Position numbers and translations under genes: made by a program. This document shows, piece after piece, positions 45,037-64,000 of a DNA stretch of 64,000 bases. Each line of letters begins with the position of its first letter. Position 1 is the stretch's first letter. The notes under the pieces were generated by a model that ran no database searches, had not been told where the DNA came from, and was given only the letters and a program-made list of their open reading frames with translations. Source of the stretch: Candidatus Hydrogenedentota bacterium (lineage in GTDB: Bacteria; Hydrogenedentota; Hydrogenedentia; Hydrogenedentales; JAEUWI01); NCBI GenBank assembly GCA_034669905.1, contig JAXMOL010000045.1:2584-66583 (forward strand), read 5' to 3'.

Positions 45037-45670
45037 GGGGTCCATCCTTTTCGATAGTGCGCCGCTCCGAGCGGGCTTTCAACGCGGCGAATAACAACAG
45101 CCATGCGCCGAGGACAAAGAATCCTCCCGGCGGAAGGATCATAACGGCCCAGGGTTCGAAGTGTGGACCGAACACATCGACGCCGAGCAGGGAACCGTTT
45201 CCGAGCAATTCCCGCACGCCGCCGAGACAGAGTAATGCGAAGGTGAATCCAACCCCCATGCCGAGGGCATCCAGAATTGCCTGGACGGGTCCGTTCTTGG
45301 ACGCGAAGGCCTCTGCACGGCCCAGGATAATGCAATTGACGACGATGAGTTGGATAAAGGCTCCAAGGGCGAGGTAGACCTCCAGACTGATTGCCTGGAG
45401 CGCATAGTCCACTATGGTCACAAAGGTGGCAATGATGACGATATAGGTTGCAATGCGTACCTGTTTCGGAATGACATGTCGCAAGAGGGAGACGAGCGTG
45501 CTTGAGCTGACCAGCACAAAAAGGGTCGCCAGGCCCATGGCCAGGGCGTTGATCACCGAGTTCGATACGGCCAGCACGGGGCACATCCCCAGCAACATGA
45601 CGAATACCGGATTCTCGCGCCAGAGACCTTTGGCGAAGATATCGAAGGATTCATTGTGTGCTGTACTCAT
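45026..45670 (-). CDS. rnfE: Rnf complex subunit E
   Basis: ENPVF..LLGMCPVLAVS, LIVVNCIILGRAEAFA, LPPGGF. Confidence 0.93.
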   Translation of the reverse strand: MSTAHNESFDIFAKGLWRENPVFVMLLGMCPVLAVSNSVINALAMGLATLFVLVSSSTLVSLLRHVIPKQVRIATYIVIIATFVTIVDYALQAISLEVYLALGAFIQLIVVNCIILGRAEAFASKNGPVQAILDALGMGVGFTFALLCLGGVRELLGNGSLLGVDVFGPHFEPWAVMILPPGGFFVLGAWLLLFAALKARSERRTIEKDGPHVG

Positions 45671-46374
45671 GAGCCCGCTCCTTCCAGTTCGGCCAGGTGG
45701 GGACGGAGCCGGGGCAGCTTTGCCCGCAGACTCGCTTCCAGCATGGCACCGATGGCCTTGGAACTGATGGTTGCGCCCGCGATGCCGTCAATTTCCCAGG
45801 GATTCGTCTTCTTGCCATGCTTGACGACGACGATACCGTGCGACAGGACGTCCGTTTCTCCGCCCACCGCGGCCTCCAAAGCGTCGAAGTTGGCCAGGAA
45901 TACCGGGTCCTTTGCGATCTTGTCGCCGAGTCCGGGGGTTTCCTTACTCTCCAGCACCGTCATGCCGGTTACAATCTGGCGGACCCCATCGTAGCCGTAG
46001 AGGATACGAATGACATCCTGGTAGCCCTGGCCTGACGCCTCCAGAGCCACACCGCGCAGCGCCCCGGCATCGTCATAGACGGCGTAGAAGCGCTCCCCAA
46101 ATCCCGCGCCCGTGGGGTCCGGGTCAATACCGTTCTCTGTGAATCCGTACGCCTTCTTCTGGGTGCCTTCCGGTACCACGGTAAAGATGGCCGCTTCGAC
46201 CATGGCCTCCCGGTTGGCATCGATATAGGGCGCGGTAAGCTGGAAGATACCAACGATTAGCAGGCCGGAAAGGGCTGCCACGCCGGAGAGTACGATCATC
46301 ATCTTCCGGGTGTTCGCCGAGGGGGCTTCGCCAGGCGTGGGGAGCGGGGTAGTCGCTTGGAGTGTTTCAGCCAT
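45667..46374 (-). CDS. rnfG: Rnf complex subunit G (covalent FMN)
   Basis: Single TM; GYQDVI, ETPGLGDKI, DGIAGATISS flavinylation site. Confidence 0.9.
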   Translation of the reverse strand: MAETLQATTPLPTPGEAPSANTRKMMIVLSGVAALSGLLIVGIFQLTAPYIDANREAMVEAAIFTVVPEGTQKKAYGFTENGIDPDPTGAGFGERFYAVYDDAGALRGVALEASGQGYQDVIRILYGYDGVRQIVTGMTVLESKETPGLGDKIAKDPVFLANFDALEAAVGGETDVLSHGIVVVKHGKKTNPWEIDGIAGATISSKAIGAMLEASLRAKLPRLRPHLAELEGAGS

Positions 46375-47419
46375 GCTGTTCCTTTCGCTGGCCGAAGATG
46401 CGCGGCTGGGTCCATTGGTCGATTAAGGGCGTCATGGCATTGCCCAGGAGGATGGCGTACATGACGCCCTCCGGCAGCCCCCCCTTGAGGCGGATGATAA
46501 TCGTCAGGGAACCGATGAGTGCGCCGTAGATCCAGACTCCCCAAGGAGTGACGGGCGAGCCCACCATATCGCTGGCCATGAATAGGGCCCCCAACATGAG
46601 TCCGCCGGAAAAGAGCATGAAGACGGGGCTCGGGTACGTGGCGGAATCACTCAGGTAGAAAGCGCCGCTCAGGACGTAGGCCGTGCCGAGCACGGCAACG
46701 GGGATACGCCAGTCCATGATGCGTCGGATGATCAAATAAGCACCGGCCAACAACAAGAGAAGCGAACAGGTTTCGCCGGCCGAGCCCGCGGTCATGCCGA
46801 AGAACAGGGGCGACAGGTCCGTTTGCACCTGGCTGAACTTGTGCAGTGACAGGGGGGTCGCACCGCTGAATCCGTCCACGGTAACGGAAGCCATCCAGGC
46901 GTCTATGCTGGGCGGCTTGCAGAAGGGTGGAGTCAGTGAAGTGGGGACGAACTCTCCAAAGCGTCCCGTCGCCTGGGCGGGCGACCACGTGGTGATGGCC
47001 ACGGGAAAGGAAGCCTGCAGAAAGGCTCTTCCCACCAAGGCGGGATTAAACACGTTAAAGCCGAGTCCGCCAAATAGGGCCTTGCCCAGGGCCACGGCGA
47101 TGACGGCCCCAAGGGCGGCCATCCACAGGGGGAATCCGGGGGGGAGCGTAAGGGCGAGTAGCATACCCGTGATAATGATACTCCCGTCGGAGAGGGTCGA
47201 TGGCTTCGCGGAGAGATAGCTGCAGAGCCGTTCGGTTGCGGCGCATACGCCGACGCAGGTGAACAGGAGGGCCAACGCGCTGAGGCCAAATTGCCACACA
47301 CTGAAGGCGCAGACCGGCGTGAGGGCGTAGATCACGTGGTACATGATGTGGTCCACGCTGATGGGTTTGTGCAGGTGGGGCGAGGCCTGGAGCTCGAGTA
47401 GATGGGTGTTCGTGCTCAT
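46367..47419 (-). CDS. rnfD: Rnf complex subunit D
   Basis: SPH, FGGLGFNVFNPA, DGFSGATPL (FMN-Thr), GSAGE, FMASD, YAILLGN. Confidence 0.93.
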   Translation of the reverse strand: MSTNTHLLELQASPHLHKPISVDHIMYHVIYALTPVCAFSVWQFGLSALALLFTCVGVCAATERLCSYLSAKPSTLSDGSIIITGMLLALTLPPGFPLWMAALGAVIAVALGKALFGGLGFNVFNPALVGRAFLQASFPVAITTWSPAQATGRFGEFVPTSLTPPFCKPPSIDAWMASVTVDGFSGATPLSLHKFSQVQTDLSPLFFGMTAGSAGETCSLLLLLAGAYLIIRRIMDWRIPVAVLGTAYVLSGAFYLSDSATYPSPVFMLFSGGLMLGALFMASDMVGSPVTPWGVWIYGALIGSLTIIIRLKGGLPEGVMYAILLGNAMTPLIDQWTQPRIFGQRKEQHG

Positions 47420-48762
47420 GATGTCGCCGCCTTTCGTTCGCGGACGAGTTGTTTGCTCACCCGGAACTGCTGGACCAATGGGATTTTTGCAGGACACACG
47501 TAGGTGCAGCAGCCACATTCAAAGCAGTCCATCAGGTGAAAATCATCCGCCATACGGTCGTAGTCGCGGACCCGCGCCAACTGACCGAGGAAACAGGGAT
47601 TGAGTTGAATAGGGCAGGCCTGGAGACAGGCACCACATTTAATACAGGGCCGCGTCGCCACATGTTGGCGCGCTTCTTCTCGGGGCAGTACGAGGATCCC
47701 TGAGACGCCTTTGGTGATCGGGGTGTCCCACGACACGATGGCCGACCCCATCATCGGCCCGCCAAAGATCACCCGGGCCTTTCCCGATTTCAGGCCCACG
47801 TGATCGAGGACATGCCGAATTGGTGTGCCCAGTGCGACGAGATAGTTCCCGGGCTTCTGGATGCCCTCTCCTGTTACGGTAATGATCCGCTCGATAAGGC
47901 CCTGTTGCTTCGGTACGAGTTCGCCAATCTGCGCCAGGGTGGCCACGTTGAACACGGCGGCCCCCACGTCGGCGGGCAGTCCACCAGCGGGCACTTCTCG
48001 ATTGAGAAGGGACTGAATCAACATCTTCTCGGCGCCCTGGGGATACTTTGTTTCCACAATGCGCACGTCCACCCGGTCTTCGGGCCGGATAACCCCATTC
48101 AACGCCGCCGCGGCATCGGGCTTGTTGGCTTCGATGCCGATAATCGCCCGCTCCGCATTCAGTGCCTTCCGGATTACGGCCAGGCCCTTGAGCACGGCCT
48201 CGGGCTGCTCCACCATGAGCCGGTGGTCGGTGGTGAGGTAGGGCTCACACTCGCAGCCGTTGACGATAATCGTGTCGACCGATTTTCCGGGGGGTACCTT
48301 CAGCTTTACGTGGGTCGGGAACGCCGCGCCGCCCAATCCCACCACGCCGGTATGCTGCACCGCTGCGACAAGTTGTTCCGGTGTCATGGTGTCGATATCT
48401 TGTGGGGCGCCATAAAGGATGGCCTGATCGGCGCTGGGGTACCCCTCGATGACGATGGAAGGCACCAGTTGTCCCTTCGGGGTGGGTATATTGCTTATTC
48501 CTCGGACGCGGCCGGTTATCGGCGCATGCATCGGCACCGAGACAAAGCCGACGGCCTCGGCGATGGGTTCGCCGCGGACCACCTCTTGCCCAGGCCTCAC
48601 CAGCGGCACAGCGGGTGCGCCGGTATGTTGCGAAAGGGGCACGTAGACGACGTCGGGAAAGGGCAGACGCACCACGGCACGGTCCGCCGTGAGCTCCTTA
48701 TGCTCCGGCGGATGTAGTCCGTGGGAAAAGCTCTTTCGTCGTAGCTTGAATATCGTCAACAT
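47416..48762 (-). CDS. rnfC: Rnf complex subunit C
   Basis: QHTGAP, GVVGLGGAAFPT, NGCECEPYLT.D, KYPQGAEK, GGPMMG, two CxxCxxCxxxCP. Confidence 0.94.
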   Translation of the reverse strand: MLTIFKLRRKSFSHGLHPPEHKELTADRAVVRLPFPDVVYVPLSQHTGAPAVPLVRPGQEVVRGEPIAEAVGFVSVPMHAPITGRVRGISNIPTPKGQLVPSIVIEGYPSADQAILYGAPQDIDTMTPEQLVAAVQHTGVVGLGGAAFPTHVKLKVPPGKSVDTIIVNGCECEPYLTTDHRLMVEQPEAVLKGLAVIRKALNAERAIIGIEANKPDAAAALNGVIRPEDRVDVRIVETKYPQGAEKMLIQSLLNREVPAGGLPADVGAAVFNVATLAQIGELVPKQQGLIERIITVTGEGIQKPGNYLVALGTPIRHVLDHVGLKSGKARVIFGGPMMGSAIVSWDTPITKGVSGILVLPREEARQHVATRPCIKCGACLQACPIQLNPCFLGQLARVRDYDRMADDFHLMDCFECGCCTYVCPAKIPLVQQFRVSKQLVRERKAATS

Positions 48763-48787
48763 GTTCTCTCGGCCCTTGAGCAGGTGC

Positions 48788-51700: not shown

Positions 51701-53710
51701 CTTGTGCTGCAATTGCTTCTTGATCGCCTCGAAGAGCGATTCCTCGGTCAGCCCCTGCTTCTCCATCACGGGTGAGGCCTTAAAAAAGGCCCCCTGGAAA
51801 GCGTTGCCCTGCATCCGGAATTGGAGCTCCGGGTCGGCGGCTTCGTCCCGCGCAATTTTGAAGGCGTCGAGATAGAAAACGCGGATCTTATGGTCCACGA
51901 TGATTTTTTGATAGGTCTTGGGAATACTCTTCCATACGGCTTCCGGGGTGTTCAGGTCCGATTGTATGATGAAGACCCCACCCCCCTTCAGGCCGGCGAG
52001 GGCGTTACTGTGGTTGAACACGTTCGGGTCGGGGGAGAGCACGACGTCCACGTAGATATATTCGCAATTGATTCGGATGGGCTCGGGCGCGGCAGAAAGG
52101 TAGTAGGTGGTTGGCTGGCCTTTCTTTTCGGACCCATACTTCGGATTGGCCTTGATGTGATAACCCAGGAGGTCGAAGAGGGTCATGGCCAGGTTCTTAC
52201 CCGTGGTAATCGCACCCCAGCCCCCCACGGAGTGGAATCGTACCGTGATGGCATCTTTCGGCATGAGATTGGGATTTTCGCTGCCGCGTATCGCCAGCTT
52301 ACGGACGTCGGGATAGGCCGCTTCGATGGTCTGCTGCTGGATTTCCTGCTTGGGGGTGTAGGCCTTGTCGTGAAGGAAGTCGACGGACAGATAAAAGAAT
52401 CGCTTTTTCTCGCCGTCGGGCAGCATATTCTCAACGGCGGCAATGAGGCCTTCGGGCTGCAGGTCGCGGCTGCCGAGGCCGAAGGAGCCCGAGTAGAGTG
52501 GAGGGGCGTCATGGGCACTGGAGTAGGCGGTAATTCCGGGATAGGGGACCGGGCCCTTAGCCGCGCGCCCGTTTTCCATGGCCTTCCCTATTGCGCCACG
52601 TATTTCTTTCATCAGGGGGAGGTCGGAGGCGAGGGGCTGGTCGACCCGTTCGAGAATAACCACGCCCTTGCGCCCCTTGAGAAGCTCACTGAGCAGATCC
52701 GAGGGAAATGGCCGGAACATGATCAGGTTTATCACGCCCACTTTAAGTTTCCGCGTTTCACGGAGGTAGTCTGCCACCGTCTCGGCGGAGCTGACCACCG
52801 AGCCCTGCCCGAAGATGATATATTCCGCATCGTCGCACTTGTAGGTGTTGACCCGTGCGTAGTGCCGACCCGTGAGTTCGGAGAAGGCTGCGAAGCATCC
52901 GTCTGACAGCGACTGGATGTGGTCGAAGAAGAAGGGGCGCTGGGCGGCGACGCTCTGCATGTAGGCGTCCTGATTCTGCACCGTGCCGAGCATCATCGGA
53001 TTGTCGACGGTCCAGAGCTCGGGAATCCGGCGCCGCGTTTCACCATACATGATCTTCTGGGCGGGCGTGGGCGTCGGGATGATGTCGTCGGGCCGTCCCA
53101 GATACTCGGCGATGAGTTCCCGCTCGGGCAAGAGGATGGACTCAATGAGGTGGGTTGTCAGGAATCCGTCCTGGGCCACGATCCCGGGGGTCAGTGAAAG
53201 TTCGGCGATCTTGTGGGCGATGATGTTCAGGTCACAAACTTCTTGGGCGCTTTTTCCGAATACCTGGAAAAAGCCCGTATCGTCCACCGCATGGTAATCA
53301 TCGTGGCCGGCATGGACGTTGAGGCTTGACTTGGTCATCGCGCGGCAGCCCATGTTGAGTACATAGGTCAGGCGCTTGCCCACGGCGGCATAGAGGGATT
53401 CGTGCATGTAGGCGATGCCCTGGCCCGAGGAGAAATTGGTGGCGCGCAGCCCGGTCATGGAGAGGCCGGCCGTAACGGCGGCCGCGGCATGTTCGCCCTC
53501 GGGTTCGATGAAAATCAGCGGACGTTCCGAAATATTGAGATGGCCCTTGGCGGTTTCCTCGGCCCAGTATTCGCCCATCTGCGTGGAGGGCGTTATGGGG
53601 TAAGCGCCCGCCGCGTCGCTGGATTCCCGCTCGCACATGATGACGGCGGTATTGCCGTCCATCGCTTGCCGTATGCCGGGGTATTTACATGTCTTCGTCA
53701 AGTTTTTCAT
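48788..53710 (-). CDS. por: Single-chain pyruvate/2-oxoacid:ferredoxin oxidoreductase (NifJ/PFOR-type) with an extra C-terminal ferredoxin
   Basis: AYPITPS, SEKKG, two 4Fe-4S motifs, GACLGCGE, NATGC, GGDGAMYDIG, YSNTGGQ, CMPEHG; terminal CTACDEC...C domain. Confidence 0.9.
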   Translation of the reverse strand: MKNLTKTCKYPGIRQAMDGNTAVIMCERESSDAAGAYPITPSTQMGEYWAEETAKGHLNISERPLIFIEPEGEHAAAAVTAGLSMTGLRATNFSSGQGIAYMHESLYAAVGKRLTYVLNMGCRAMTKSSLNVHAGHDDYHAVDDTGFFQVFGKSAQEVCDLNIIAHKIAELSLTPGIVAQDGFLTTHLIESILLPERELIAEYLGRPDDIIPTPTPAQKIMYGETRRRIPELWTVDNPMMLGTVQNQDAYMQSVAAQRPFFFDHIQSLSDGCFAAFSELTGRHYARVNTYKCDDAEYIIFGQGSVVSSAETVADYLRETRKLKVGVINLIMFRPFPSDLLSELLKGRKGVVILERVDQPLASDLPLMKEIRGAIGKAMENGRAAKGPVPYPGITAYSSAHDAPPLYSGSFGLGSRDLQPEGLIAAVENMLPDGEKKRFFYLSVDFLHDKAYTPKQEIQQQTIEAAYPDVRKLAIRGSENPNLMPKDAITVRFHSVGGWGAITTGKNLAMTLFDLLGYHIKANPKYGSEKKGQPTTYYLSAAPEPIRINCEYIYVDVVLSPDPNVFNHSNALAGLKGGGVFIIQSDLNTPEAVWKSIPKTYQKIIVDHKIRVFYLDAFKIARDEAADPELQFRMQGNAFQGAFFKASPVMEKQGLTEESLFEAIKKQLQHKFGSKGARVVEDNVRVVTRGFDEVSEITDKSLSTEPETALRRAPTLPVMMRDVPKGENAFSDVHRFWEETGEFYMTGKGNDNLVDPFIGLSVVPACTGVFRDMSQIRFDHPLWIPENCTACGKCYTVCPDSAIPGLVHSIKEVFDTAMSRVEGTHGATKLLRKTLGIVENRLRSRLGTEGEPAQVRALINEVLDDVVAVSTVSDTDRPRLEEEAGWFTEALGDFQFAVSKPYFTQKEKRQPGSGGLLSITVNPYACKGCMECVEVCDDDALRAIPQTESSLKKLRDDWEVWRALPTTSQEYIRIDDLDEKIGALETLLLDKKAYYTMTGGDGACLGCGEKTVIHLFTATVEALMQPRVKAHLARLEALMKDLEQHVRLKLASTVDLSDPSAIQHAIDTAKNADLTLGRLSEGLDQQHSQQPLDPGWLQWVTGLMAHLKQLHWNYTTGTTHRGRSSMGIINATGCTSVWGSTFPFNPYPFPWANHLFQDSPSMAMGIFEGHMAKMADGFKAIRLAELALEDRMPWKEYEKSLTYFNWRHFSPEEFLLCPPVVSVGGDGAMYDIGFQNLSRLMMSGKPIKVMVLDTQVYSNTGGQACTSGFTGQVSDMAQFGKAFQGKEEIRKEIGLIAMAHRTTYCMQGSISNVTHLLEGFIDGLNARRPALFNVYSPCMPEHGIADDVADLQSKLAVESRAYPLFRYNPDLGATPQECFDLDGNPAMDLEWPVYTLHYTDEEGEEATMETPLTFADFAVTEGRFRKQFRKAPRDTWNENMIALAEYLELTDEDREGLFPYIWMVGKKHELVRVIPADPIVKATEDRKQFWTMLRAIALPAEMPDRDAIAASVKSEMAQHLAAQLLQLVGGNGGMTAMAIPDASAPPASEPAPAASDNGGFTAAYIDTAECTACDECTQINPKIFAYNEQKKAYVKDPKGGPFKDIVRAAEKCTAGIIHPGTPADPGEKGLEKLVKRAEKFN

Positions 53711-53744
53711 GGCCAACACCTTGATCGCGTTTCCGTTCGCGCCC

Positions 53745-54626
53745 TTATGATTTGTCCATCGTCATGACCGGCAGCGGCGATTTCCGGACGACCGGTGGCG
53801 CTGCCGCGCCTTTTTCCACCACGCCCGTATCCGAAATCCAGACGATCGCCCCCGTGGGACAGCGCTGGATAATCTCTTTGGTAAGTTGCCCACCCCGGCC
53901 GTAGTTCACTACCGGCAAGTTCTCCTGCATGGTGACGGCACCATCCGGTGCATCGGCGGCACACCGGCCGCAGGCGTTGCATGCTACGGCACATTCCGCC
54001 AGCGCCCCATCCCCCTCTGCGAGGCTCTTGCAGGCTACCCAGAGGTGGTGGGTGACGGGGTGGATGGAGAAAAGGTCTTTGGGACACACGTCGACGCAAT
54101 CATTACAGGCGGTGCATTTCGTCTCGTCGACAACAGGGAGACCGTGCGCGTTCATCGTGATGGCGCCGAAACTACAAACCGCCTCGCAGTCGCCCAGTCC
54201 CAGACAGCCCCAGGAGCATCCCTTACCGCCGCCTGCGATGAGTGTGGCACCGCGACAGCTTTGCGCACTGCCGTAAACCGCCCGGTTCCAGGCCACATTC
54301 GTGCCGCCCGCACAGGCCAGCCGGGCCACCCGCTTGACTGCGGTACCGGCTTCCATTCCGAGATAGCCCGCTACGGCCTTAATGCCCTCCGGTGCGCTCA
54401 CCGTACATTGGACGGGTGTCGCTTTACCCGCTACCACCGTCTCCGCAAAGGCGCGGCAGCCAGCCTGACCACAGGCGCCGCAGTTTGCGCCGGGTAGCAT
54501 ATCTTCGACCACATCAATGCGGGGGTCCTCTTCCACCTGGAAGCGGCGATTGGCAGTCGCCAGTCCGAGCGAAAGCAGCCCACCGAGCAGGGCCATGAAG
54601 AAGGTCGCTAAGAGAATTTCTGACAT
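53745..54626 (-). CDS. rnfB: Rnf complex subunit B
   Basis: N-terminal TM; LPGANCGACG..GC; several ferredoxin motifs. Confidence 0.92.
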   Translation of the reverse strand: MSEILLATFFMALLGGLLSLGLATANRRFQVEEDPRIDVVEDMLPGANCGACGQAGCRAFAETVVAGKATPVQCTVSAPEGIKAVAGYLGMEAGTAVKRVARLACAGGTNVAWNRAVYGSAQSCRGATLIAGGGKGCSWGCLGLGDCEAVCSFGAITMNAHGLPVVDETKCTACNDCVDVCPKDLFSIHPVTHHLWVACKSLAEGDGALAECAVACNACGRCAADAPDGAVTMQENLPVVNYGRGGQLTKEIIQRCPTGAIVWISDTGVVEKGAAAPPVVRKSPLPVMTMDKS

Positions 54627-55192: not shown

Positions 55193-55269
55193 TGGTGGGC
55201 GATACAAGAATCGAACTTGTGACCTCCACGATGTCAACGTGGCGCTCTAACCAACTGAGCTAACCGCCC
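55193..55269 (-). tRNA. tRNA-Val (GAC)
   Basis: 77 nt: GGGCGGTTAGCTCAGTTGGTTAGAGCG-CCACG-TT GAC AT-CGTGG-...GTTCGA...CGCCCACCA; CCA encoded. Confidence 0.97.
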
Positions 55270-55374: not shown

Positions 55375-56148
55375 TTACTGTTTTTCAGCGACAATTTCGA
55401 AAGTGATGCGGACTTCGTCTTTGACGAGGTCATCGGCGAGGCCCGTGTCGGTCATGCCCCAGTCGCTGCGCAGGAGTGCGAAGTCGGCGGCCGCTTTAAG
55501 GGTGTCGCCTTCGACGGCAATGGTGGCGGGGAAGGTGATGTTGGTTTCAACGCCACGAACCATCAGCTTGCCGGAAACATCATAGCCTTTTTCGGTCTTC
55601 TTGACGCCGGAGGAGGTGAAGGAGGCTTCCGGATGGGCACCAATGTTGAACCACTCTTCATTGTGGAGTGTTTCGGTGAGCATGGAGGCCGTCGTGAAGA
55701 TGGAGGTCATGTCGAAAGTGATGGCGATCTGGGCGGTCTCGGGATTGCCGTCGGTGATGATAACCGTGCCATTGTATTCGCCCCAGCTACCCTGCTGGTT
55801 GCCCGTTACTTTGTAGCCGGTGAAACCGATAGCGTTTTCATCGTTGGGCTCGATGACGTACGTAACCGGGCCGGTAGCGGCGGGAGCGGCTTCGGGGGCG
55901 GGCGTAGCTTCGGGAGCGGGCGCAGCTTCCGGTGCAGGCGTTGCTTCGGGAGCAGGTGTTTCTTCAGCAGGCATTTCTTCTGCCGGGGCTTCTTCGGCGG
56001 GTGCTTCTTCAGCAGGTGCTGCTTCCGGCGCGGGGTCCACGTTGCGCACAACGGTAAGCTCTTCGGGCGGGGCGGTTTCGCCACATCCGGAAAGGACAGC
56101 GAGCAGTGCGACGAGGGTCAGCGCGGTGAGGTTGCTCATGAGTTTCAT
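55375..56148 (-). CDS. YceI family lipoprotein with Pro/Ala/Glu-rich tether
   Basis: Lipobox LSGC; EEAPA/PEATPA repeats; YceI motifs (IGFTG, WFNIGAHPEASF, GKLMVRGV, RSDWGM). Confidence 0.88.
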   Translation of the reverse strand: MKLMSNLTALTLVALLAVLSGCGETAPPEELTVVRNVDPAPEAAPAEEAPAEEAPAEEMPAEETPAPEATPAPEAAPAPEATPAPEAAPAATGPVTYVIEPNDENAIGFTGYKVTGNQQGSWGEYNGTVIITDGNPETAQIAITFDMTSIFTTASMLTETLHNEEWFNIGAHPEASFTSSGVKKTEKGYDVSGKLMVRGVETNITFPATIAVEGDTLKAAADFALLRSDWGMTDTGLADDLVKDEVRITFEIVAEKQ

Positions 56149-56320: not shown

Positions 56321-57880
56321 TTAGGCTTTCGTTTCCATTTCTGGAACTTCGATGGCCTGGATGTTTTCGTCGTACATCGTGGCGCTGGGCGTCTCGAAGT
56401 CGAACTGGGACCAGGCGGGATCGATTTCAATCACGCCGCCCGTTTTCGAAGCGTTGCGGGCCGCCACGGAAACGATGGTGGCACCAAGGCCGACCATTTC
56501 GTTGGTGCGGGGCTTTTCGCCACTCTTCACACATGCGGCGAAGGCGTTGAACTGGTGAACGTCGGCCGTGGTTTCCGAACCCTCGGCAGCGAAGAGCTGG
56601 GCACCGTCGATAGCGGAGTTACCGAGCTTGCGGCTGAGGCCGGAGCTGATCTTGTAGGCTTCCCGTTCGGCCTTGGACATTTCCTTGGTCTCTTCGGCGA
56701 AGGCGTCGAGGATAGCCTGCTTCTCGGCTTTCTGCTCGTCGGTGAGGGGAGTCGCCCAGGGTTCCTGGGTGAACCAGCAGCCATCGGCTTCGGTAAGCTC
56801 GATAGCGCCCTTGTCGCCCATGAACATTTCGCCGGCGCCCTTCTTGGCATTGGCGAGGATGCTGGAGTAGAAGCAACGCACCGTGTAGGGCTTGTTGATC
56901 TTCATGAAGTCCTGGTATTCGTTCCGGCTGTCGACGTTGATGAAGGCACCGTCTTTGCGGCTCACGTCGTAGTCGTACATGACGGAAATGTTGTCGGCCA
57001 CGGTGCGACCGTCGCGCCAGTAATCCGTGCCCGCCGTGCAATACACGCGGGAGGGCAGGGTGCCGGCAAACCAGTTGGCGATGTCCACGGAGTGGGTCAG
57101 CAGTTCGGTGAAGAGACCGCCAGAAGTTTCTTCATAGAGACGCCAGTTGAGGTGGTGCTCCAGGTCGGTCTTAATGAACTTCTGTTCCATTTCATTGAAG
57201 GCGTAGTCGTTATCGACCACGCGGCGGCCGGCGGCGTTACGGTGCCACTGCATTTCCATGTGGTTGATACGGCCGAGCCAATCTTCATTGAGATAGCGCT
57301 TCATGGCCAGGTTGTAGTTGGGATTGTAACGGCGCTGGTGGCCGACCTGGACGAAGAGACCCTTTTCGTTGGCCTTCTTCACGATGTCACGGGCGTGCTC
57401 GATTTCGTAGCACATGGTCTTTTCGCAGAAGACATAGAGTCCCTGCTCCAGGCAGTACATGGTGGGCTCGTAGTGTTCCGTGAGGCCCGTGGAGATGACG
57501 ACGGCGTCGAGTTCTTCCTTCTCGATCATCTCTTTGTAGTCGTAATAGGGGGTCGGCTTGGTAACGGCCTTGAGCTTAGCCATCTGCTCGGGCGTAGGAC
57601 GACCGCCTTCGAGAACGACCTGCGCGTTGGCGAGCCAGCCGCGAAGGGCGCCACCCTTTTGGTGGGGTTCGTAGACGTCGGCGACGGCCACGACTTCGAG
57701 ATCATTGGCACCCCAGATGCCGTCACCCAGGTGGAAGTTGCCCTGACCACCCGTTCCGATGCAGCCAATCCGAACTTTTTCGTTTTGCGCGTACGCGAGC
57801 GGGTTATACCCCGTTGCGATGGCTACGCCGGCAGTTGCGCCAGCAGCCTTCATGAAATTACGACGTGTAACTTCGTTCAT
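56321..57880 (-). CDS. Tat-exported Gfo/Idh/MocA oxidoreductase (paralog 1)
   Basis: TRRNFM Tat signal, IGTGGQG, FCEKTM, QVGHQRR, NWRLY, THSVD. Confidence 0.9.
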   Translation of the reverse strand: MNEVTRRNFMKAAGATAGVAIATGYNPLAYAQNEKVRIGCIGTGGQGNFHLGDGIWGANDLEVVAVADVYEPHQKGGALRGWLANAQVVLEGGRPTPEQMAKLKAVTKPTPYYDYKEMIEKEELDAVVISTGLTEHYEPTMYCLEQGLYVFCEKTMCYEIEHARDIVKKANEKGLFVQVGHQRRYNPNYNLAMKRYLNEDWLGRINHMEMQWHRNAAGRRVVDNDYAFNEMEQKFIKTDLEHHLNWRLYEETSGGLFTELLTHSVDIANWFAGTLPSRVYCTAGTDYWRDGRTVADNISVMYDYDVSRKDGAFINVDSRNEYQDFMKINKPYTVRCFYSSILANAKKGAGEMFMGDKGAIELTEADGCWFTQEPWATPLTDEQKAEKQAILDAFAEETKEMSKAEREAYKISSGLSRKLGNSAIDGAQLFAAEGSETTADVHQFNAFAACVKSGEKPRTNEMVGLGATIVSVAARNASKTGGVIEIDPAWSQFDFETPSATMYDENIQAIEVPEMETKA

Positions 57881-58366: not shown

Positions 58367-58918
58367 TTACTGTATCTGTGCCTTGGAGAACTCGCAGCGA
58401 CGGTTTTTTGCCCAGGCGGCTTCATTGCTGCCGCTGACGGCGGGCATTTCTTCGCCGTAGCTGATGGTTACAATCCGGTCGCCCGAGACGCCCAGGGTGC
58501 GGAGGTGATTGCGCACACTCTGGGCACGGCGTTCGCCGAGGGCCAGGTTGTATTCCTGGGTGCCGCGCTCGTCGGCATGGCCTTCAATCTGTACGATGGC
58601 CTTGGGGTCGGTCTTGAGCAGGTCCGACGCGGCACGTACATCGGCCAGGGCCGGCGTGTCCAGCGAGGAACTGTCGAAGCCAAAGTAAATCGGGCTGAGG
58701 CCGTCTACTTTCTGGAAGAAGAGCTTATCGGCATCCATTCCAGGAAGGGATTCACTGTCGGCCGGCTCGGTGTCGGTCGTCTGGTCCGTGGCTTCGCCCA
58801 GGGGGGTGATAGGGGCTTTGTCTTTATTGCTTTGGCAGCCGTTAAGGAGGGCTATGGCCAAGAGGAGTCCCGCAACGCCGGTATAAGAGAAAAGGGAACG
58901 GGATGGGGTAGTTTTCAT
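58367..58918 (-). CDS. pal: Peptidoglycan-associated lipoprotein Pal (OmpA-like)
   Basis: Lipobox LNGC; IYFGFDSS, EGHADERGTQEYNLALGERRA, SYGEE, KNRR. Confidence 0.92.
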   Translation of the reverse strand: MKTTPSRSLFSYTGVAGLLLAIALLNGCQSNKDKAPITPLGEATDQTTDTEPADSESLPGMDADKLFFQKVDGLSPIYFGFDSSSLDTPALADVRAASDLLKTDPKAIVQIEGHADERGTQEYNLALGERRAQSVRNHLRTLGVSGDRIVTISYGEEMPAVSGSNEAAWAKNRRCEFSKAQIQ

Positions 58919-59543: not shown

Positions 59544-59780
59544 TTTAGTCCCGTAGGGACGACATATCGTAGCCCAGGTGCGAGCGCAGCGAGCCCTGGG
59601 ATTGCTCGAAAGCGAAAAGCATTGTAACCCCGAAGGGGTGGCATAGAAGTGTTGGGAACTTGGCTGATCTTCCTATGCCACTCCTTCGGAGTTCCGTTCT
59701 TCTGGGGCCTGTCTACCCAGGGTTCCGCTCGTGCCTCGCTTCACCGCTGGGCTACGATATGTCGTCCCTACGGGACTAAA
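59544..59780. mobile_element. 237-bp non-autonomous REP-doublet/MITE-like element
   Basis: Perfect 33-bp terminal inverted repeats (59544-59576 / 59748-59780); no ORF. Confidence 0.75.
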
Positions 59781-59888: not shown

Positions 59889-61436
59889 CTATACTTCCGC
59901 TTCGATGGCCGTGGCTTCCTGGTCGTAGTCCGTCGCCGAAGGGGTATCAAAGTCGAATTCCATCCACGCCGGGTCGATGTCGACGGGGGTACCGGTCTTT
60001 GCGGCTTTCAGCGCGGAGACGGAGACAATGGTCGCGCCGAGTCCGACCATTTCGTTGGCCCTTGGGGTGCCGCCGTTCTTGATGTGGTGGGCGAAGGCCC
60101 GGAATTGATGGACGTCCGCAGTTTCCTCACACCCCTCCGCGAAGAACTGCGTGGCACCTTCGTTGGCCGCATTGCTCAACTTACGACTGAGCCCGAAGGT
60201 GACCTTAAAGGCCTCCCGTTCGGCGATGGACATGCCCTTGGTCAGTTCCGCGAATTCGGCGAGGATGGCCATCTTTTCCTTCTTCTCCTCGGGGGTAAGG
60301 GTGCGTGCCCAAGGTTCCTGGGTAAACCAACACCCGTGGGCCTCGGTCAGTTCCAAGGCCCCCTCATCACCGAGGAATAATTCGGAGGCCCCTTTCTTGG
60401 CGTTGCCCAGAATGCTGGAATACATGCAGCGGACCGTATAGGGCTTGTTGATGGCTTTGAAATCCTGGTAATCGTTGCGGCTGCTGATGGGGACAAAGTT
60501 ACCCGTGCTTCGCTTGATGGTGTAGTCGTAGGTCACGGAGATGTTGTCCGCCACGGTCCGCCCGTCCCGCCAGTAGTCGGTGCCCGCCGAGCATTGCACC
60601 CGGGTGGGCAGGGTGCCGCAGAACCAGTTGGCCATATCGACGGAATGGGTGAGGAGTTCGGTGAAGAGTCCCCCGGAAAGTTCCTCGTAGAGCCGCCAGT
60701 TGAGGTGGTGCTCCAGGTCGGTGGTGATGAATTTGCGTTCGTGTTCGTTGAAGCGGTAGTCGGGGTCAATGACCCGCCGTCCGGCCGCATTCCGGTGCCA
60801 CTGCATTTCGATGTGGTTGATACGCCCCAACCAACCTTCTTCTAAGAACCGTTTCATGGCCAGGTTGTAGTTGGGGTGGTAGCGCCGCTGGTGGCCCACC
60901 TGGACGAATCGTCCTTTCTCATGGGCCTTCTTGACGATGTCCCGCGCCTCGTCAATGGTGTAGCACAGGGTCTTTTCGCAGAAGACGTAGAGCCCTTGTT
61001 CGAGGGCATACATGGTGGGTGCGTAGTGATGGGTGAGGCCGGTGCAGATTACGACGGCGTCGAGGTTTTCCTGGGCAATCATTTCCTGGTAGTCGTAGTA
61101 GGCCGTGGGGGTGGGGAGTTTGTCGAGGATGGCCCGTTGTTCGGCCGTGGGCTTGCCCCCTTCCAACACCATTTGGGCGTTTGCCAGCTTGGCATGAAGG
61201 ACGCCAGATTTCTGATGGGGTTCATAGACATCGGCGACGGCCACGACGTCGATTTCATCGGTGCCCCAGATGCCATCGCCCAGGTGAAAGTTGCCCTGTC
61301 CGCCCGTTCCGATACAGCCCACTCGGACTTTCTGCTCATTTTTCGCGTAGGCCCGTGGATCGTATCCCGTGGCAATCGCCACGCCCGCCGTGGCGCCTGC
61401 GGCCTGTATGAATCTCCGTCGCGTTACTCGGTTCAT
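59889..61436 (-). CDS. Tat-exported Gfo/Idh/MocA oxidoreductase (paralog 2)
   Basis: TRRRFI Tat signal; collinear with paralog 1 over its full length. Confidence 0.9.
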   Translation of the reverse strand: MNRVTRRRFIQAAGATAGVAIATGYDPRAYAKNEQKVRVGCIGTGGQGNFHLGDGIWGTDEIDVVAVADVYEPHQKSGVLHAKLANAQMVLEGGKPTAEQRAILDKLPTPTAYYDYQEMIAQENLDAVVICTGLTHHYAPTMYALEQGLYVFCEKTLCYTIDEARDIVKKAHEKGRFVQVGHQRRYHPNYNLAMKRFLEEGWLGRINHIEMQWHRNAAGRRVIDPDYRFNEHERKFITTDLEHHLNWRLYEELSGGLFTELLTHSVDMANWFCGTLPTRVQCSAGTDYWRDGRTVADNISVTYDYTIKRSTGNFVPISSRNDYQDFKAINKPYTVRCMYSSILGNAKKGASELFLGDEGALELTEAHGCWFTQEPWARTLTPEEKKEKMAILAEFAELTKGMSIAEREAFKVTFGLSRKLSNAANEGATQFFAEGCEETADVHQFRAFAHHIKNGGTPRANEMVGLGATIVSVSALKAAKTGTPVDIDPAWMEFDFDTPSATDYDQEATAIEAEV

Positions 61437-61618: not shown

Positions 61619-64000
61619 TTACGCGTTGGGGAAGTTAATCCGAACGGCGTGGGGTTTGCCGTCGACGAGTCCGACCTTGATGGCCTTGACTTCGGGATGT
61701 TCGCCGCAGAAGGTGCGGACTTCCGTTTCGCTCATAACGAGGAAGGAGGTGCTCAGGGCGTCGGCCTGGGCACCCGTGGGGCAGATGGCCATGGCACCGA
61801 GGGTTTCATCCACGGCGGACCCGGTGCGGGGGTCGTAGATGTGGGAGAAGCGTTCGCCCTCTACTTCGAAGCTGCGCCCCTCACCCGAGGAGGTGGAGAA
61901 GGCTTCGTCCTTGATGACAAAGCGGTCCACATAATCCTTCACGCCCGGCTCGTGATAGACCTTGTCGACAATCACATTCCAGCCAGAAGTTTCCGGCGGG
62001 GCGCCCATGGCGACGAAGGTGCTGTCGCCGCCGCTGAGGAGGGCGCATTCGATACCGTTGGCCTTGAGGGTCTGCGCCGCCACGTCGAGGGCATGGCCTT
62101 TGCCAATGCCACCGAAGTCGAGGCGCATGCCCGGCTGGGTGTAGAAAACGGTGCGTTGGTCATGGTCAATCTGCACCTTGTCGAGGCCGACCCGGGCCAG
62201 GGTATCCGCAATTTCTGCATCGGTGGGGACCCGCCCTTCCTTTTTGTAGACGCCCCACTGGTCCAGCAGGGGGCCGACGGTGATGTCGAAAATGCCCCCC
62301 GTGTCGTCATAGGCCTGTTGAGACACCCTCAACAGGGCCATGACATCCGGGTGCACCTGGACCGGCTCTTTTGCGGCCAGGCGGTTGAGCTTGGCGGTGA
62401 AGCTGTCGACGCGCCAGGTGCTCACCCGGCGCTCCAACTGCTCCACCCGGTCCAAGGCCGCCAGACCGATTTCGGTCAGGCGGGTCGGGTTGTACGCCCC
62501 CGAAGGGGCGTACATGGTGATTTCGAAACGGGTGCCCATGAGGTCACGGGCGACAATCTGCTGGACCGCATCGGTCGGGGCCTCGGCCCCGGCGTGGGCC
62601 GGGGGAAAGAGGAGGCTGGCGGACTGTTCGGGTTCCGCCCCTTCTTCGGTTGCGGGTTCTGCCGGTGCTTCCTCCGCAGCGGGTGCGCTACCGAGATTCT
62701 TCTGCAGGGTTTTCCAGTTGCCGAGCAAGCCGTTGTAACCGGCTACGCTCATGATGAGTACGGCGGCAATGAGGGAGGTGTTCCAGAAGATTCGTTTGCC
62801 GCCTTCAGGCCGTGCGTCGCCCATGTAGGACTTGGAGTTCAGCAGGATGATGAACCCAATGACCGCGACGGGCATGAGGGGCGCGGCGAGGCTGGAGGCC
62901 GTTACCGCGGCAAACCATGGGAACTTAACGAGCACGCCAATGATTCCGATAGCGGGGAGAAGGGAGAACCAGAATTTGGCCTTGCCCTTGTATTCGAAGC
63001 CGAAGAGTTCACAGCCGATAAAGCCACTCGCCAGCATGTGGGTAATGATGGTGGAGAAGCCGATGGCAAACATGCCCAGGCCGATGAGCAGGAGCGAGAG
63101 GGTCTTGCCGAGGGTCTGGTCGAGGACGGGCAGGATGGCGCGGATGTCTTTTACGATAGTCCCCACCGAGCCGATATCGGGGCCAATGGTGTTGGCGACG
63201 GCAATCATCATGAAGCCGGTGGCGAGGATAAAGGGGATGGCCATGCCGGAAATCAGGTCAAAATAGGCGAGCTCTTTGTGTTCCTTGCCCCAGTTTTTGT
63301 TCAACAGGGAGTAGGGGTAGAGGAAGACCATGTTGATACCCACGGCGGCGGCGATACCCCCGACGATGGGGATGGTGGCCTGTTCGGGGAAGCCGTTGGC
63401 GGAAATGTGCTGGATAAAGCTGATTCCGGTAAAGCCCAGGAACAGTTCTTTGAAATCGATACCGGTGCGAATGGCCACAATGGCGAAGGCACCCACGATA
63501 CCCCAGACCAATACCTTGACCAGGGTTTCATAAATCTTGAGCCCCTTGGCGCCCGTGCTGTAGAGATAGCATACGAAGCCTGCGGCAGCGAGGACGCAGA
63601 CCCCGATAGCCGCACGGCCTGCGGTGCCACCGAGATTGATGCCGATACCGCTGGCCAGTTCGACCGCGCCGTTGGCGGTAAGCGAGTATTGGGGGATGTG
63701 CCAGAGAATCGTGGCGATGAGCGCCGCGATACCCCAGGCCATGGCCAGGGCGGGGTGGAGGCGATTCCAGAAGGCCTCATAGGGCTTTTCACCGGTCTGG
63801 CAGGTCTGCTTCGCCACGGCTCCCAGAACGCAGAGTCCCAGGAAGATGGCGAGGGGTTGGACCCAGAGAAGCTGGTAGCCCAACAGGGAGCCCATGAGCA
63901 CGCAGGAGGCGATGGAACCGCCCCCAAGCGTCATGGCGCTCTGCATGTAACCCGGTCCGCTCAGCTTGAGGTAGCCCTTGATGCGGGCTCCCAGGGGCTG
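61619..64000 (-). CDS. NRAMP-like (APC-fold) transporter fused to ApbE FAD:protein FMN transferase; 5' end outside the window
   Basis: The frame is open to the window edge (QPLGARIKGYLKLSGPGYMQSAMTLGGGS). About 11 TM helices, an acidic linker, then ApbE motifs MGT, FDITVGPL, DFGGIGKG, HIYDPRTG, ADALST. Confidence 0.85.
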   Translation of the reverse strand, partial: QPLGARIKGYLKLSGPGYMQSAMTLGGGSIASCVLMGSLLGYQLLWVQPLAIFLGLCVLGAVAKQTCQTGEKPYEAFWNRLHPALAMAWGIAALIATILWHIPQYSLTANGAVELASGIGINLGGTAGRAAIGVCVLAAAGFVCYLYSTGAKGLKIYETLVKVLVWGIVGAFAIVAIRTGIDFKELFLGFTGISFIQHISANGFPEQATIPIVGGIAAAVGINMVFLYPYSLLNKNWGKEHKELAYFDLISGMAIPFILATGFMMIAVANTIGPDIGSVGTIVKDIRAILPVLDQTLGKTLSLLLIGLGMFAIGFSTIITHMLASGFIGCELFGFEYKGKAKFWFSLLPAIGIIGVLVKFPWFAAVTASSLAAPLMPVAVIGFIILLNSKSYMGDARPEGGKRIFWNTSLIAAVLIMSVAGYNGLLGNWKTLQKNLGSAPAAEEAPAEPATEEGAEPEQSASLLFPPAHAGAEAPTDAVQQIVARDLMGTRFEITMYAPSGAYNPTRLTEIGLAALDRVEQLERRVSTWRVDSFTAKLNRLAAKEPVQVHPDVMALLRVSQQAYDDTGGIFDITVGPLLDQWGVYKKEGRVPTDAEIADTLARVGLDKVQIDHDQRTVFYTQPGMRLDFGGIGKGHALDVAAQTLKANGIECALLSGGDSTFVAMGAPPETSGWNVIVDKVYHEPGVKDYVDRFVIKDEAFSTSSGEGRSFEVEGERFSHIYDPRTGSAVDETLGAMAICPTGAQADALSTSFLVMSETEVRTFCGEHPEVKAIKVGLVDGKPHAVRINFPNA

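What the first reader, a model, noticed from the sequence alone, without database searches (positions are those of the whole stretch)
61619..64000. NRAMP-like transporter fused to an ApbE flavin transferase
Seen: one uninterrupted frame joins about 11 TM helices to a complete ApbE domain through an acidic Pro/Ala linker. The NRAMP metal-binding motifs (TM1 DPGN, TM6 AxxMPH) are replaced by TLGGGS and AAVGINM. Established: ApbE is extracytoplasmic, uses FAD and Mg2+, and flavinylates RnfG/RnfD/NqrB/NqrC; an 11-TM N-in topology would place it outside. Inference: the transporter may supply FAD or Mg2+ to its own transferase, or move the substrate of the adjacent oxidoreductases. How FAD reaches ApbE is poorly understood. 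RnfD/RnfG flavinylation sites are encoded about 15 kb away.
Basis: partly seen in the sequence, partly recalled or inferred. Interest (0 to 1): 0.76.

Follow-up and report, generated by a model that had tools for sequence, protein, structure and literature searches.

The report
Nramp-like permease fused to ApbE
A membrane permease of the Nramp fold that has lost its metal site is fused, in one real and recurrent gene, to the enzyme that attaches flavin to secreted proteins, and that enzyme most likely flavinylates the exported sugar dehydrogenases encoded next to it, a target class not described so far.

Summary
Window 61619..64000 (-) is one open frame that runs off the window. It encodes an 11-helix Nramp-fold domain, a disordered acidic Pro/Ala linker and a complete ApbE domain. 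Contigs from four studies show no indel in the linker, and more than 60 homologue clusters carry the same fusion. The Nramp metal site is gone (DPGN aligns to GGGS). Topology places ApbE in the periplasm, and its catalytic His, Lys and Mg site are kept.

The new result concerns the neighbours. Every fused gene with enough downstream DNA is followed by a Tat-exported Gfo/Idh/MocA dehydrogenase, then a YceI lipoprotein or an octahaem cytochrome c/b. This dehydrogenase family has a [IV]-T-S-G-[GA]-T motif in a variable insert, with Thr/Ser in 122 of 122 sequences. ApbE lies directly upstream in 50 of 62 metagenome loci, and only 5 of those 50 are fused to the permease. ApbE therefore most likely flavinylates the dehydrogenase.

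The permease keeps every family-invariant residue, so it is probably active. Unfused relatives never sit near ApbE and often lie in carbohydrate loci. FAD export is possible (about 0.25) but not favoured. This is a new variant of a known kind, with moderate to high interest.

The parts
61619..64000 (-). Fusion gene, 5' end beyond the window: Nramp-fold permease domain, linker and ApbE domain, with the stop codon at 61619-61621
   Evidence: ORF; Pfam Nramp plus ApbE; AF2 model mf84f5e035973, pLDDT 86.8
62684..64000 (-). 11-TM Nramp-fold (LeuT-fold) domain. GGGS at 63914-63925 replaces DPGN. The TM6 unwound stretch AAVGINMVFLYPYS is at 63308-63349.
   Evidence: Foldseek: DraNramp 6d91, TM-score 0.81 on the target. 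The same residues are invariant in fused and unfused relatives.
62576..62683 (-). Disordered acidic Pro/Ala/Glu linker, predicted periplasmic
   Evidence: pLDDT below 50. Linkers vary in length and sequence among homologues but are always in frame. No indel in contigs of four studies.
61622..62575 (-). ApbE FAD:protein FMN transferase domain. STW is at 62402-62422, GGIGKG at 62096-62113, the catalytic His in SHIYDP at 61829-61846, and the Mg site ADALST at 61748-61765.
   Evidence: Pfam. PDB alignments, including V. cholerae wild type against H257G. Foldseek TM-scores 0.79-0.86 to FmnB, Ftp and ApbE. Coordinates.
59889..61436 (-). GFO1: Tat-signal Gfo/Idh/MocA dehydrogenase. The candidate flavinylation residue is Ser417 (VTFGLSR), codon 60186-60188.
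58367..58918 (-). OmpA/Pal-like lipoprotein between the two dehydrogenase paralogues. It is also present in L001.
56321..57880 (-). GFO2: Tat-signal Gfo/Idh/MocA dehydrogenase paralogue (74% identical to GFO1). The candidate flavinylation residue is Ser416 (KISSGLSR), codon 56633-56635.
   Evidence: AF2 model m6486ff7c72cb, pLDDT 89.3, with the motif in a region of pLDDT about 70. The nearest PDB folds are sugar 3-dehydrogenases and GFOR.
55375..56148 (-). YceI-like lipoprotein with a long Pro/Ala/Glu linker, the third conserved gene of the module
   Evidence: Pfam YceI. Conserved downstream of the dehydrogenase in 11 fused loci and in many loci with a stand-alone ApbE.
46367..47518 (-). RnfD with a canonical flavinylation site (VDGFSGAT), a possible further ApbE substrate
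45667..46374 (-). RnfG (FMN_bind) with the site EIDGIAGAT, a possible further ApbE substrate

Best explanation
The gene encodes an inner-membrane protein. Its N-terminal 11-TM Nramp-fold domain ends on the periplasmic side and carries an active ApbE FMN transferase on a flexible linker. Shown: the fusion, its topology, the intact ApbE catalytic residues, the lost metal site, and the conserved three-gene module. Inferred: the Tat system exports the adjacent Gfo/Idh/MocA dehydrogenases folded with NAD(P) bound. The tethered ApbE then uses FAD and Mg2+ to attach FMN to the conserved Ser/Thr of their [IV]-T-S-G-[GA]-T-type loop (Ser417 in GFO1, Ser416 in GFO2). The covalent FMN would let the bound NAD(P)H pass electrons one at a time to the third module member, either a quinone-binding YceI lipoprotein or, in other genomes, an octahaem cytochrome c fused to a cytochrome b561. 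This would make a periplasmic sugar dehydrogenase that feeds the respiratory chain. The Nramp-like domain is a working carrier of a non-metal solute, most likely a carbohydrate-derived one, and it also replaces the usual lipid or signal anchor of ApbE. Its substrate is not established.
For: Fusion and topology. ApbE catalytic His, Lys and Mg site are kept, and an aromatic residue (Trp) aligns with the Tyr of the conserved S-T-Y motif of E. coli ApbE; from recall, that Tyr is Y60, which is Asn55 in the T. pallidum pyrophosphatase. In GTDB loci, 15 of 18 fused genes are followed by the dehydrogenase, two of the other three are cut off by the contig end, and L028 is followed by a non-homologous protein; 11 are followed by YceI. 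None of the unfused relatives has ApbE, this dehydrogenase or YceI within 10 kb. In 122 dehydrogenase sequences (mean identity 46%) the motif column is Thr/Ser in 122 of 122. Gly at -2 occurs in 107 and Ser/Thr at -3 in 99, inside an otherwise hypervariable insert. Several read SGAT or SGAS exactly. ApbE lies directly upstream on the same strand in 50 of 62 metagenome loci of this dehydrogenase family, across 31-98% identity, and in 3 of 3 long-contig look-ups. The third gene is YceI or an 8xCxxCH cytochrome c plus PF01292 cytochrome b. The dehydrogenase has an invariant twin-arginine signal and Rossmann glycines. Its nearest folds are NAD-dependent sugar 3-dehydrogenases and the Tat-exported GFOR. 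The permease domain keeps every residue that is invariant in unfused relatives.
Against: No flavinylation has been measured. The motif departs from the published D-x-x-[S/T]-G-A-[S/T]: Gly is commoner than Ala at -1 and there is no fixed Asp. The window's own copies are the most degenerate (SSGLS and TFGLS, with Leu at -1). Twelve of 62 dehydrogenase loci have no ApbE directly upstream. At least four of the twelve are still consistent with the module: L094 and L095 are second-paralogue copies, and L096 and L124 have an ApbE further away in the locus. The role proposed for YceI rests on recall of its polyisoprenoid binding and of the E. coli yceJ-yceI pairing. The permease substrate is inferred only from the gene context of relatives that are 40-44% identical.
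Confidence: 0.5

Rival explanations
1. The Nramp-like domain is a FAD (or other flavin) exporter of the LeuT fold. It releases its cargo at the mouth where ApbE is tethered, so export and flavin transfer are coupled in one polypeptide.
For: The fusion has ApbE exactly at the outer end of TM11. The metal site is replaced by a glycine-rich GGGS that could make room for a larger, phosphate-bearing ligand. Wherever the two domains co-occur locally they are fused and never separate neighbouring genes, in 23 of 23 loci. [quoted passage not shown]
Against: Of 50 ApbE-dehydrogenase loci, 45 have no Nramp-like gene within the up to 6 kb of upstream DNA fetched. None of the unfused relatives in the 80 species loci has ApbE within 10 kb, although they share 55-69% identity and all invariant pocket residues. 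Distant relatives with the same signature motifs lie among sugar-acid dehydratase, SDR, PIG-L deacetylase, GH172 and sugar ABC transporter genes. No FMN riboswitch or other riboswitch lies upstream. From my own knowledge, known FAD exporters belong to other folds (MATE Bfe, ECF), and LeuT-fold carriers usually move small solutes.
Confidence: 0.25
2. The fused ApbE is simply the cell's general flavin transferase for Rnf (RnfG, RnfD). Its position next to the dehydrogenases and the permease is inherited gene order without functional meaning, and the fusion is a topologically permissive accident that only provides a membrane anchor.
For: RnfG and RnfD with canonical sites lie 14-16 kb downstream on the same strand. 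No second ApbE is present in the 64-kb window. deoC sits divergently upstream of the fused, permease-only and ApbE-only forms alike, which shows strong gene-order inertia at this locus. The fused and unfused states interleave on the TM-domain tree, with at least 8 changes.
Against: The ApbE-dehydrogenase adjacency holds over 31-98% identity and across many lineages, and Rnf is not near the module in the other loci examined. The dehydrogenase carries a conserved ApbE-like Thr/Ser motif. The permease domain keeps all family-invariant residues, so it is not a decaying anchor. The two readings do not exclude each other, because one ApbE can serve several targets.
Confidence: 0.12
3. The TM domain is a divalent-metal carrier (Mn2+, Fe2+ or Mg2+). 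It either supplies Mg2+ to ApbE or takes up iron reduced by a flavinylated reductase, as in the flavinylation/iron-transporter clusters described by Meheust et al. (2021).
For: It is a Pfam PF01566 member. ApbE needs Mg2+. Flavinylation genes are known to co-localise with iron transporters (PMC8238504).
Against: The TM1 Asp common to Mn2+ and Mg2+ carriers (PMC8806188) is Gly, and the Asn is Ser. The TM6 Met-Pro-His motif is absent. All NCBIfam Nramp/MntH models score far below their cut-offs (22.5 against 430, 19.3 against 50).
Confidence: 0.03

Closest known systems
ApbE / Ftp / FmnB FAD:protein FMN transferases (PF02424)
   Same: The fold matches (TM-score 0.79-0.86). The catalytic His, the GKG lysine and the C-terminal D-x-x-S-T Mg site are present. 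The domain is extracytoplasmic and membrane-attached.
   Different: It is anchored by an 11-TM permease instead of a lipid or signal anchor. It scores below the NCBIfam E. coli-type equivalog cut-off (112 against 498 bits). The predicted main target is a Gfo/Idh/MocA dehydrogenase, not an FMN_bind, NqrB/RnfD, DUF2271 or DUF3570 protein.
SLC11/NRAMP (MntH, DMT1), the NRMT Mg2+ carriers, and the metal-site-less 'outgroup' of PF01566 (Cellier 2022, PMC9606685)
   Same: It has the LeuT fold and 11 TM helices with N-in topology. Its best structural match is outward-open DraNramp. The G-P-G-x-hydrophobic TM1a signature and the L-L-W-V stretch are shared.
   Different: DPGN is replaced by GGGS, and there is no TM6 A-x-x-M-P-H motif. 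Even the Asp kept by NRMT is lost. The family has its own invariant set (QSAMTLGGGS, WHxPQY, VGINMxFLYPY). Its gene contexts are carbohydrate loci, not metal homeostasis.
ApbE domain fused to its own target in trypanosomatid fumarate reductases (review PMC12052999)
   Same: ApbE is covalently joined to a functional partner.
   Different: In those proteins the partner is the flavinylated enzyme and the system is intracellular. Here the partner is a permease, and the presumed target is a separate, Tat-exported protein.
Flavin delivery systems for extracytosolic flavinylation: Listeria ECF RibU/FmnA with FmnB (PMC9973259) and Shewanella MATE exporter Bfe (own knowledge)
   Same: A membrane transporter is functionally paired with an extracytosolic flavin-using step. 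This is what the exporter reading would resemble.
   Different: The folds differ (ECF and MATE against LeuT/Nramp), the proteins are separate, and no transport evidence exists for the present family.
Zymomonas glucose-fructose oxidoreductase (GFOR) and NAD-dependent sugar 3-dehydrogenases (levoglucosan, glucuronide-3, DgpA)
   Same: The fold is Gfo/Idh/MocA (TM-score 0.70-0.84 on the target). GFOR is also exported with a Tat signal, with the nicotinamide cofactor bound (from recall).
   Different: The module dehydrogenases are 490-520 aa, against 330-385 aa for the structural relatives. Part of the extra length is an insert that holds the T-S-G-[GA]-T motif. They are also tied to ApbE and to YceI or a cytochrome partner.

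Membership tests
ApbE (PF02424) FAD:protein FMN transferase | Profile match above the curated threshold, and the ApbE fold | tested here: met
   215.5 bits against a 25.6 cut-off, covering 265 of 266 profile positions. Foldseek TM-scores are 0.79-0.86 to 7esb, 4xdt, 6nxi and 5mgy.
ApbE (PF02424) FAD:protein FMN transferase | Catalytic general-base His (V. cholerae H257), the conserved Lys of G-K-G, and the C-terminal Asp/Ser-Thr Mg2+ site | tested here: met
   SHIYDP aligns with the position that differs between 6nxi and 6nxj (H257G). GGIGKG and ADALST also align. All are invariant or nearly so in 45 fused homologues.
ApbE (PF02424) FAD:protein FMN transferase | Extracytoplasmic location | tested here: met
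   This is a prediction only: 11 TM helices, K+R 17 inside against 6 outside, and an acidic linker after TM11.
ApbE (PF02424) FAD:protein FMN transferase | Transfers FMN from FAD to a Ser/Thr of a target protein | not testable with these tools
   Needs biochemistry. The candidate target motif is conserved in the neighbouring dehydrogenase.
ApbE, E. coli-type equivalog (NCBIfam NF007774) | Score above the equivalog cut-off | tested here: not met
   112.2 bits against a cut-off of 498. It is a family member, not an orthologue of E. coli ApbE.
SLC11/NRAMP divalent metal transporters | PF01566 profile match and an 11/12-TM LeuT fold | tested here: met
   86.4 bits against a 29.8 cut-off. DraNramp 6d91 gives a TM-score of 0.81.
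SLC11/NRAMP divalent metal transporters | TM1 D-P-G-N and TM6 A-x-x-M-P-H metal and proton site | tested here: not met
   The profile alignment to human NRAMP1 gives D to G, P to G and N to S. TM6 reads VGINMVFLYPYS, with no His (by inspection).
SLC11/NRAMP divalent metal transporters | NCBIfam MntH/Nramp models above their cut-offs | tested here: not met
   22.5 against 430, 19.9 against 272.5, and 19.3 against 50.
NRMT (Nramp-related Mg2+ transporters) | The TM1 aspartate is retained, with Gly replacing Asn and Thr in TM6 (PMC8806188) | tested here: not met
   The aspartate position is Gly.
ApbE-flavinylated proteins (the neighbouring Gfo/Idh/MocA dehydrogenases) | Extracytosolic protein carrying D-x-x-[S/T]-G-A-[S/T], with FMN attached to the last residue | tested here: inconclusive
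   Tat signal is present. The last residue is Thr/Ser in 122 of 122, Gly at -2 in 107 of 122, and 67 of 122 match [ST]G[AG][ST]. There is no fixed Asp, and the window copies read SSGLS and TFGLS. Attachment was not measured.

The most novel reading that the evidence does not exclude
The Nramp-like domain is the first LeuT-fold exporter of FAD. It hands FAD directly to the ApbE tethered at its outer mouth. ApbE then installs covalent FMN on a new class of targets, Tat-exported Gfo/Idh/MocA sugar dehydrogenases, turning them into periplasmic NAD(P)H-to-FMN-to-quinone/haem respiratory enzymes. This would identify a route by which FAD reaches ApbE, give PF01566 a new substrate class, and add a new flavoprotein family.
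Probability: 0.22. Interest if true: 0.85.

Novelty: new variant of a known kind. Interest (0 to 1): 0.62.

Why it matters
ApbE-type flavinylation underlies Nqr, Rnf, NosR and extracellular electron transfer, yet two points remain open. The set of targets is incomplete, and a 2025 review says the way FAD reaches the periplasmic enzyme is obscure. This locus bears on both. It predicts, with strong comparative support, that a large family of Tat-exported Gfo/Idh/MocA dehydrogenases is flavinylated; the search found more than 500 members, spread well beyond Hydrogenedentota. That would explain how an exported enzyme with a bound nicotinamide cofactor can be re-oxidised in a compartment without free NAD(P). 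It also gives a concrete, testable candidate for a flavin carrier, or else defines a metal-free branch of the Nramp family that moves an organic solute. Either outcome widens what PF01566 proteins are known to do.

Tried and rejected
tblastn found none in the window.

2. I looked for canonical [ST]GA[ST] sites in all window ORFs. Among real genes only RnfD has one ([ST]GA[ST] with Asp at -6); RnfG has AGAT.

3. I considered the YceI lipoprotein as the flavinylation target. An alignment of 12 homologues shows no conserved Ser/Thr motif, so I rejected it.

4. I considered the GLGAT stretch near the dehydrogenase C-terminus as a site. It lies in the long helix 461-480 of the model, which I take to be the usual C-terminal helix of this fold, and does not fit the motif register, so I rejected it.

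5. I considered a role as FAD pyrophosphatase feeding flavin uptake. The residue I take to be the transferase/pyrophosphatase switch is aromatic (Trp), as in the transferases, so this is disfavoured.

6. I searched for an FMN or other riboswitch upstream of fused and unfused genes and in the window. None was found.

7. I tested deoC as a functional partner. It is a true deoxyribose-phosphate aldolase and sits divergently upstream of the fused, permease-only and ApbE-only forms within Hydrogenedentota. It was not found next to the relatives from other phyla, so I treat it as conserved gene order.

8. Literature searches for Nramp plus ApbE, MocA plus flavinylation, and Hydrogenedentes plus ApbE found no relevant paper. 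The Meheust 2021 text and supplements mention neither Nramp nor YceI, and PF01408 appears only in an unrelated cluster.

9. I could not measure the distance from the motif to the active site in the dehydrogenase model, because coordinates are not exposed.

10. The TAT-GFO next to the unfused permease in L008 belongs to a different subfamily (27% identity, no insert), so it is not evidence for the module.
Full report
OBSERVATION. The minus strand from 61619 to the window end is one open frame of 793 codons with no start inside a plausible range. A 98%-identical 824-aa protein (P0002) and a 97%-identical contig (L009) show that only about 11 (start MSEKEQL) to 31 (start as called for P0002) codons are missing. 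Pfam finds Nramp (PF01566, residues 30-396, 86.4 bits) and a full-length ApbE (PF02424, residues 488-774, 215.5 bits).

Hydropathy gives 11 hydrophobic spans. An AlphaFold2 model built on 45 homologues is confident (pLDDT 86.8) except for the N-terminus and the linker, P0002 residues 471-506, which are disordered. K+R residues number 17 on the loops predicted to be cytoplasmic and 6 on the others, and the stretch after TM11 is strongly acidic. The topology is therefore N-in/C-out and ApbE is periplasmic.

Foldseek matches the C-terminal half to FmnB, Ftp and ApbE (TM-score 0.79-0.86 on the target). It matches the N-terminal half to Deinococcus Nramp in the outward-open state (0.81) and to the Mg2+ carrier EleNRMT. 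Contigs assembled from runs of four different studies cover the linker with no indel or stop. The fusion is real.

THE TWO DOMAINS. A profile of the TM domain aligned to human NRAMP1 places G-G-G-S where NRAMP has D-P-G-N. The TM6 unwound stretch reads AAVGINMVFLYPYS and has no Met-Pro-His (by inspection). The aspartate that Mn2+ and Mg2+ carriers share (PMC8806188) is therefore missing, and all NCBIfam Nramp/MntH models score far below their cut-offs.

The protein belongs to Pfam PF01566 but not to SLC11 proper or to NRMT. The literature already notes a metal-site-less 'outgroup' inside PF01566, with no function assigned (PMC9606685). The domain is not decaying. QSAMTLGGGS, WHxPQY and VGINMxFLYPY are invariant both in 45 fused and in 32 unfused relatives.

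In the ApbE domain the catalytic His is present. It was identified from the single difference between the V. cholerae wild-type and H257G chains. The GKG lysine and the ADALST Mg2+ site are also present. The Tyr of the S-T-Y motif of E. coli ApbE aligns with Trp here. From recall, that Tyr is Y60, the residue that separates transferases from the T. pallidum FAD pyrophosphatase (Asn55), so the enzyme looks like a transferase.

DISTRIBUTION. The protein search returned about 65 fused clusters at 41-98% identity, and as many unfused permeases at 55-69% identity over the TM domain. A scan of one genome per GTDB species found 320 relatives. They come from Hydrogenedentota, Planctomycetota, Verrucomicrobiota, Rhodothermales, Armatimonadota, Acidobacteriota and others. 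Of the best 80, 18 are fused. On a tree of the TM domain the fused and unfused states interleave, and well-supported branches force at least 8 changes. Wherever the two domains occur in one locus they are in one frame, never separate neighbouring genes (23 of 23 loci).

THE NEIGHBOURS ARE THE KEY. The window order, all on the minus strand, is as follows:
- the fusion gene
- GFO1 (59889-61436)
- a Pal-like OmpA lipoprotein
- GFO2 (56321-57880)
- a YceI lipoprotein (55375-56148)
- a tRNA

Both GFOs are Gfo/Idh/MocA oxidoreductases with twin-arginine signals.

In the GTDB loci, 15 of 18 fused genes are followed by such a dehydrogenase. Of the other three, L009 and L010 are cut off by the contig end and L028 is followed by a protein that is not a homologue of it. 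Eleven are followed by YceI. None of the unfused relatives has ApbE, this dehydrogenase or YceI within 10 kb.

Aligning the module dehydrogenases exposed a short conserved patch inside a hypervariable, family-specific insert. In 122 family members (mean identity 46%) the consensus is [IV]-T-S-G-[GA]-T-[LR]. The last position is Thr or Ser in 122 of 122, Gly at -2 occurs in 107, and Ser/Thr at -3 in 99. Some sequences read SGAT or SGAS exactly. This resembles the ApbE recognition motif D-x-x-[S/T]-G-A-[S/T] (PMC12052999).

A scan of metagenome contigs with the dehydrogenase profile gave 62 loci with at least 1.1 kb of upstream DNA. In 50 of them ApbE lies directly upstream on the same strand, over a range of 31-98% identity to GFO2. 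Only 5 of the 50 carry the Nramp-like domain, always fused. Three look-ups on long contigs gave the same picture: stand-alone ApbE, then the dehydrogenase, then YceI or a large cytochrome. That cytochrome has eight CxxCH motifs and a C-terminal PF01292 cytochrome b561 domain.

The dehydrogenase model is confident (pLDDT 89.3). The motif (residues 411-417) lies at the end of helix 403-412 and runs into the short helix 415-418, in a region of pLDDT about 70. The nearest solved folds are NAD-dependent sugar 3-dehydrogenases and the Tat-exported GFOR.

MECHANISM. The core conserved unit is ApbE, the Tat-exported dehydrogenase, and YceI or a cytochrome c/b. The most economical reading has three steps:
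- The dehydrogenase is exported folded with NAD(P).
- ApbE attaches FMN to the conserved Thr/Ser.
- The flavin converts the two-electron hydride of the bound NAD(P)H into one-electron steps towards haems or a quinone held by YceI.

The last step is inference. It leans on my recollection that YceI proteins bind polyisoprenoids and that E. coli yceI is paired with the cytochrome b561 gene yceJ, the same family as the alternative partner here.

In the window's lineage ApbE is carried by the permease instead of by its own anchor. The window's two dehydrogenases have the most degenerate motifs (KISSGLSR and KVTFGLSR), so flavinylation is less certain for them than for the family as a whole. RnfG and RnfD, 14-16 kb away, have canonical sites and may be served by the same enzyme. 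No other ApbE is present in the window, and I could not search the rest of the genome.

WHAT THE PERMEASE DOES. Its support is the geometry of the fusion, the glycine-rich site and the open question in the field.

Three results argue against it. Most ApbE-dehydrogenase modules have no permease nearby. Unfused permeases with identical invariant residues never sit near ApbE. Relatives at 40-44% identity that still carry the signature motifs lie beside genes for an enolase-superfamily protein, an Old Yellow Enzyme, DUF993, an SDR, a PIG-L deacetylase, DUF2961/GH172, a nucleoside-type MFS carrier and a sugar ABC transporter. No riboswitch lies upstream.

I therefore rate a carbohydrate-derived solute as more likely than FAD, possibly the product of the periplasmic oxidation, with the fusion also serving as the anchor. 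I give the exporter reading about 0.25. Metal transport is very unlikely.

COMPARISON AND NOVELTY. ApbE, flavinylation and Nramp-fold carriers are all known. Three things are not in the literature I could search: the Nramp-ApbE architecture, a metal-free Nramp branch tied to carbohydrate loci, and Gfo/Idh/MocA dehydrogenases as ApbE targets. An earlier agent of this scan reached the same reading on a related gene in another genome. That is agreement, not independent proof, and I re-derived each step here. I class the finding as a new variant of a known kind. Interest is 0.62: the comparative signal for a new flavinylated enzyme family is strong and directly testable, while the more exciting FAD-export reading is possible but not favoured.

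LIMITS. Nothing here is biochemical. Model coordinates could not be inspected. The TM6 comparison, the YceI role and the identification of E. coli Tyr60 / T. pallidum Asn55 as the transferase/pyrophosphatase switch rest on inspection and recall.

Noticed in passing
window 59547-59600 (-) and 26447-26500 (-): Two matches to the Rfam Acido-Lenti-1 RNA motif score above the gathering threshold (41.7 and 50 bits). The first lies in the 870-bp gap between GFO1 and the OmpA-like gene, inside the module.
   Followed up: no
window 48788-53719 (-): A 1643-aa pyruvate:ferredoxin-oxidoreductase-like protein (POR_N, PFOR_II, POR, 4Fe-4S, TPP_enzyme_C, plus a C-terminal ferredoxin domain) is encoded between rnfB (53745-54626) and rnfC (47416-48837). 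It appears to be inserted in the rnf operon.
   Followed up: no
L009:1091-1747 (-); also L010-L012, L015, L016, L018, L020-L023, L037, L042, L045, L089-L091: A true deoC (deoxyribose-phosphate aldolase, TIGR00126, 262 bits) sits upstream on the opposite strand, usually directly adjacent, of the fused gene, of unfused permeases and of stand-alone ApbE genes in Hydrogenedentota. This locus is a stable anchor with differential loss of parts.
   Followed up: partly
L005:11884-15105 and L089:8559-12140: Proteins of 1073 to 1193 aa with eight CxxCH haem motifs and a C-terminal cytochrome b561 (PF01292) domain replace YceI as the third gene of many ApbE-dehydrogenase modules. This looks like a built-in wire from the periplasm to the membrane.
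   Followed up: partly
L058-L083 (Acidobacteriota/Thermoanaerobaculia loci): Unfused Nramp-like genes are flanked by a divergent DUF7133 plus cytochrome c protein and followed by a CUT2-type sugar ABC transporter (ATPase, permease, periplasmic binding protein).
   Followed up: partly
window 55196-55269 (-); L011:18200-18273: A tRNA gene closes the module directly after the YceI gene, both in the window and in a related genome.
   Followed up: no
L158-L161: Distant dehydrogenase relatives (35-37% identical) carry a canonical VVTSGATH site and the cytochrome c/b partner, but no ApbE in up to 6 kb of upstream DNA. L160 has a GH130 gene there, on the opposite strand. Their ApbE must be encoded elsewhere.
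   Followed up: partly
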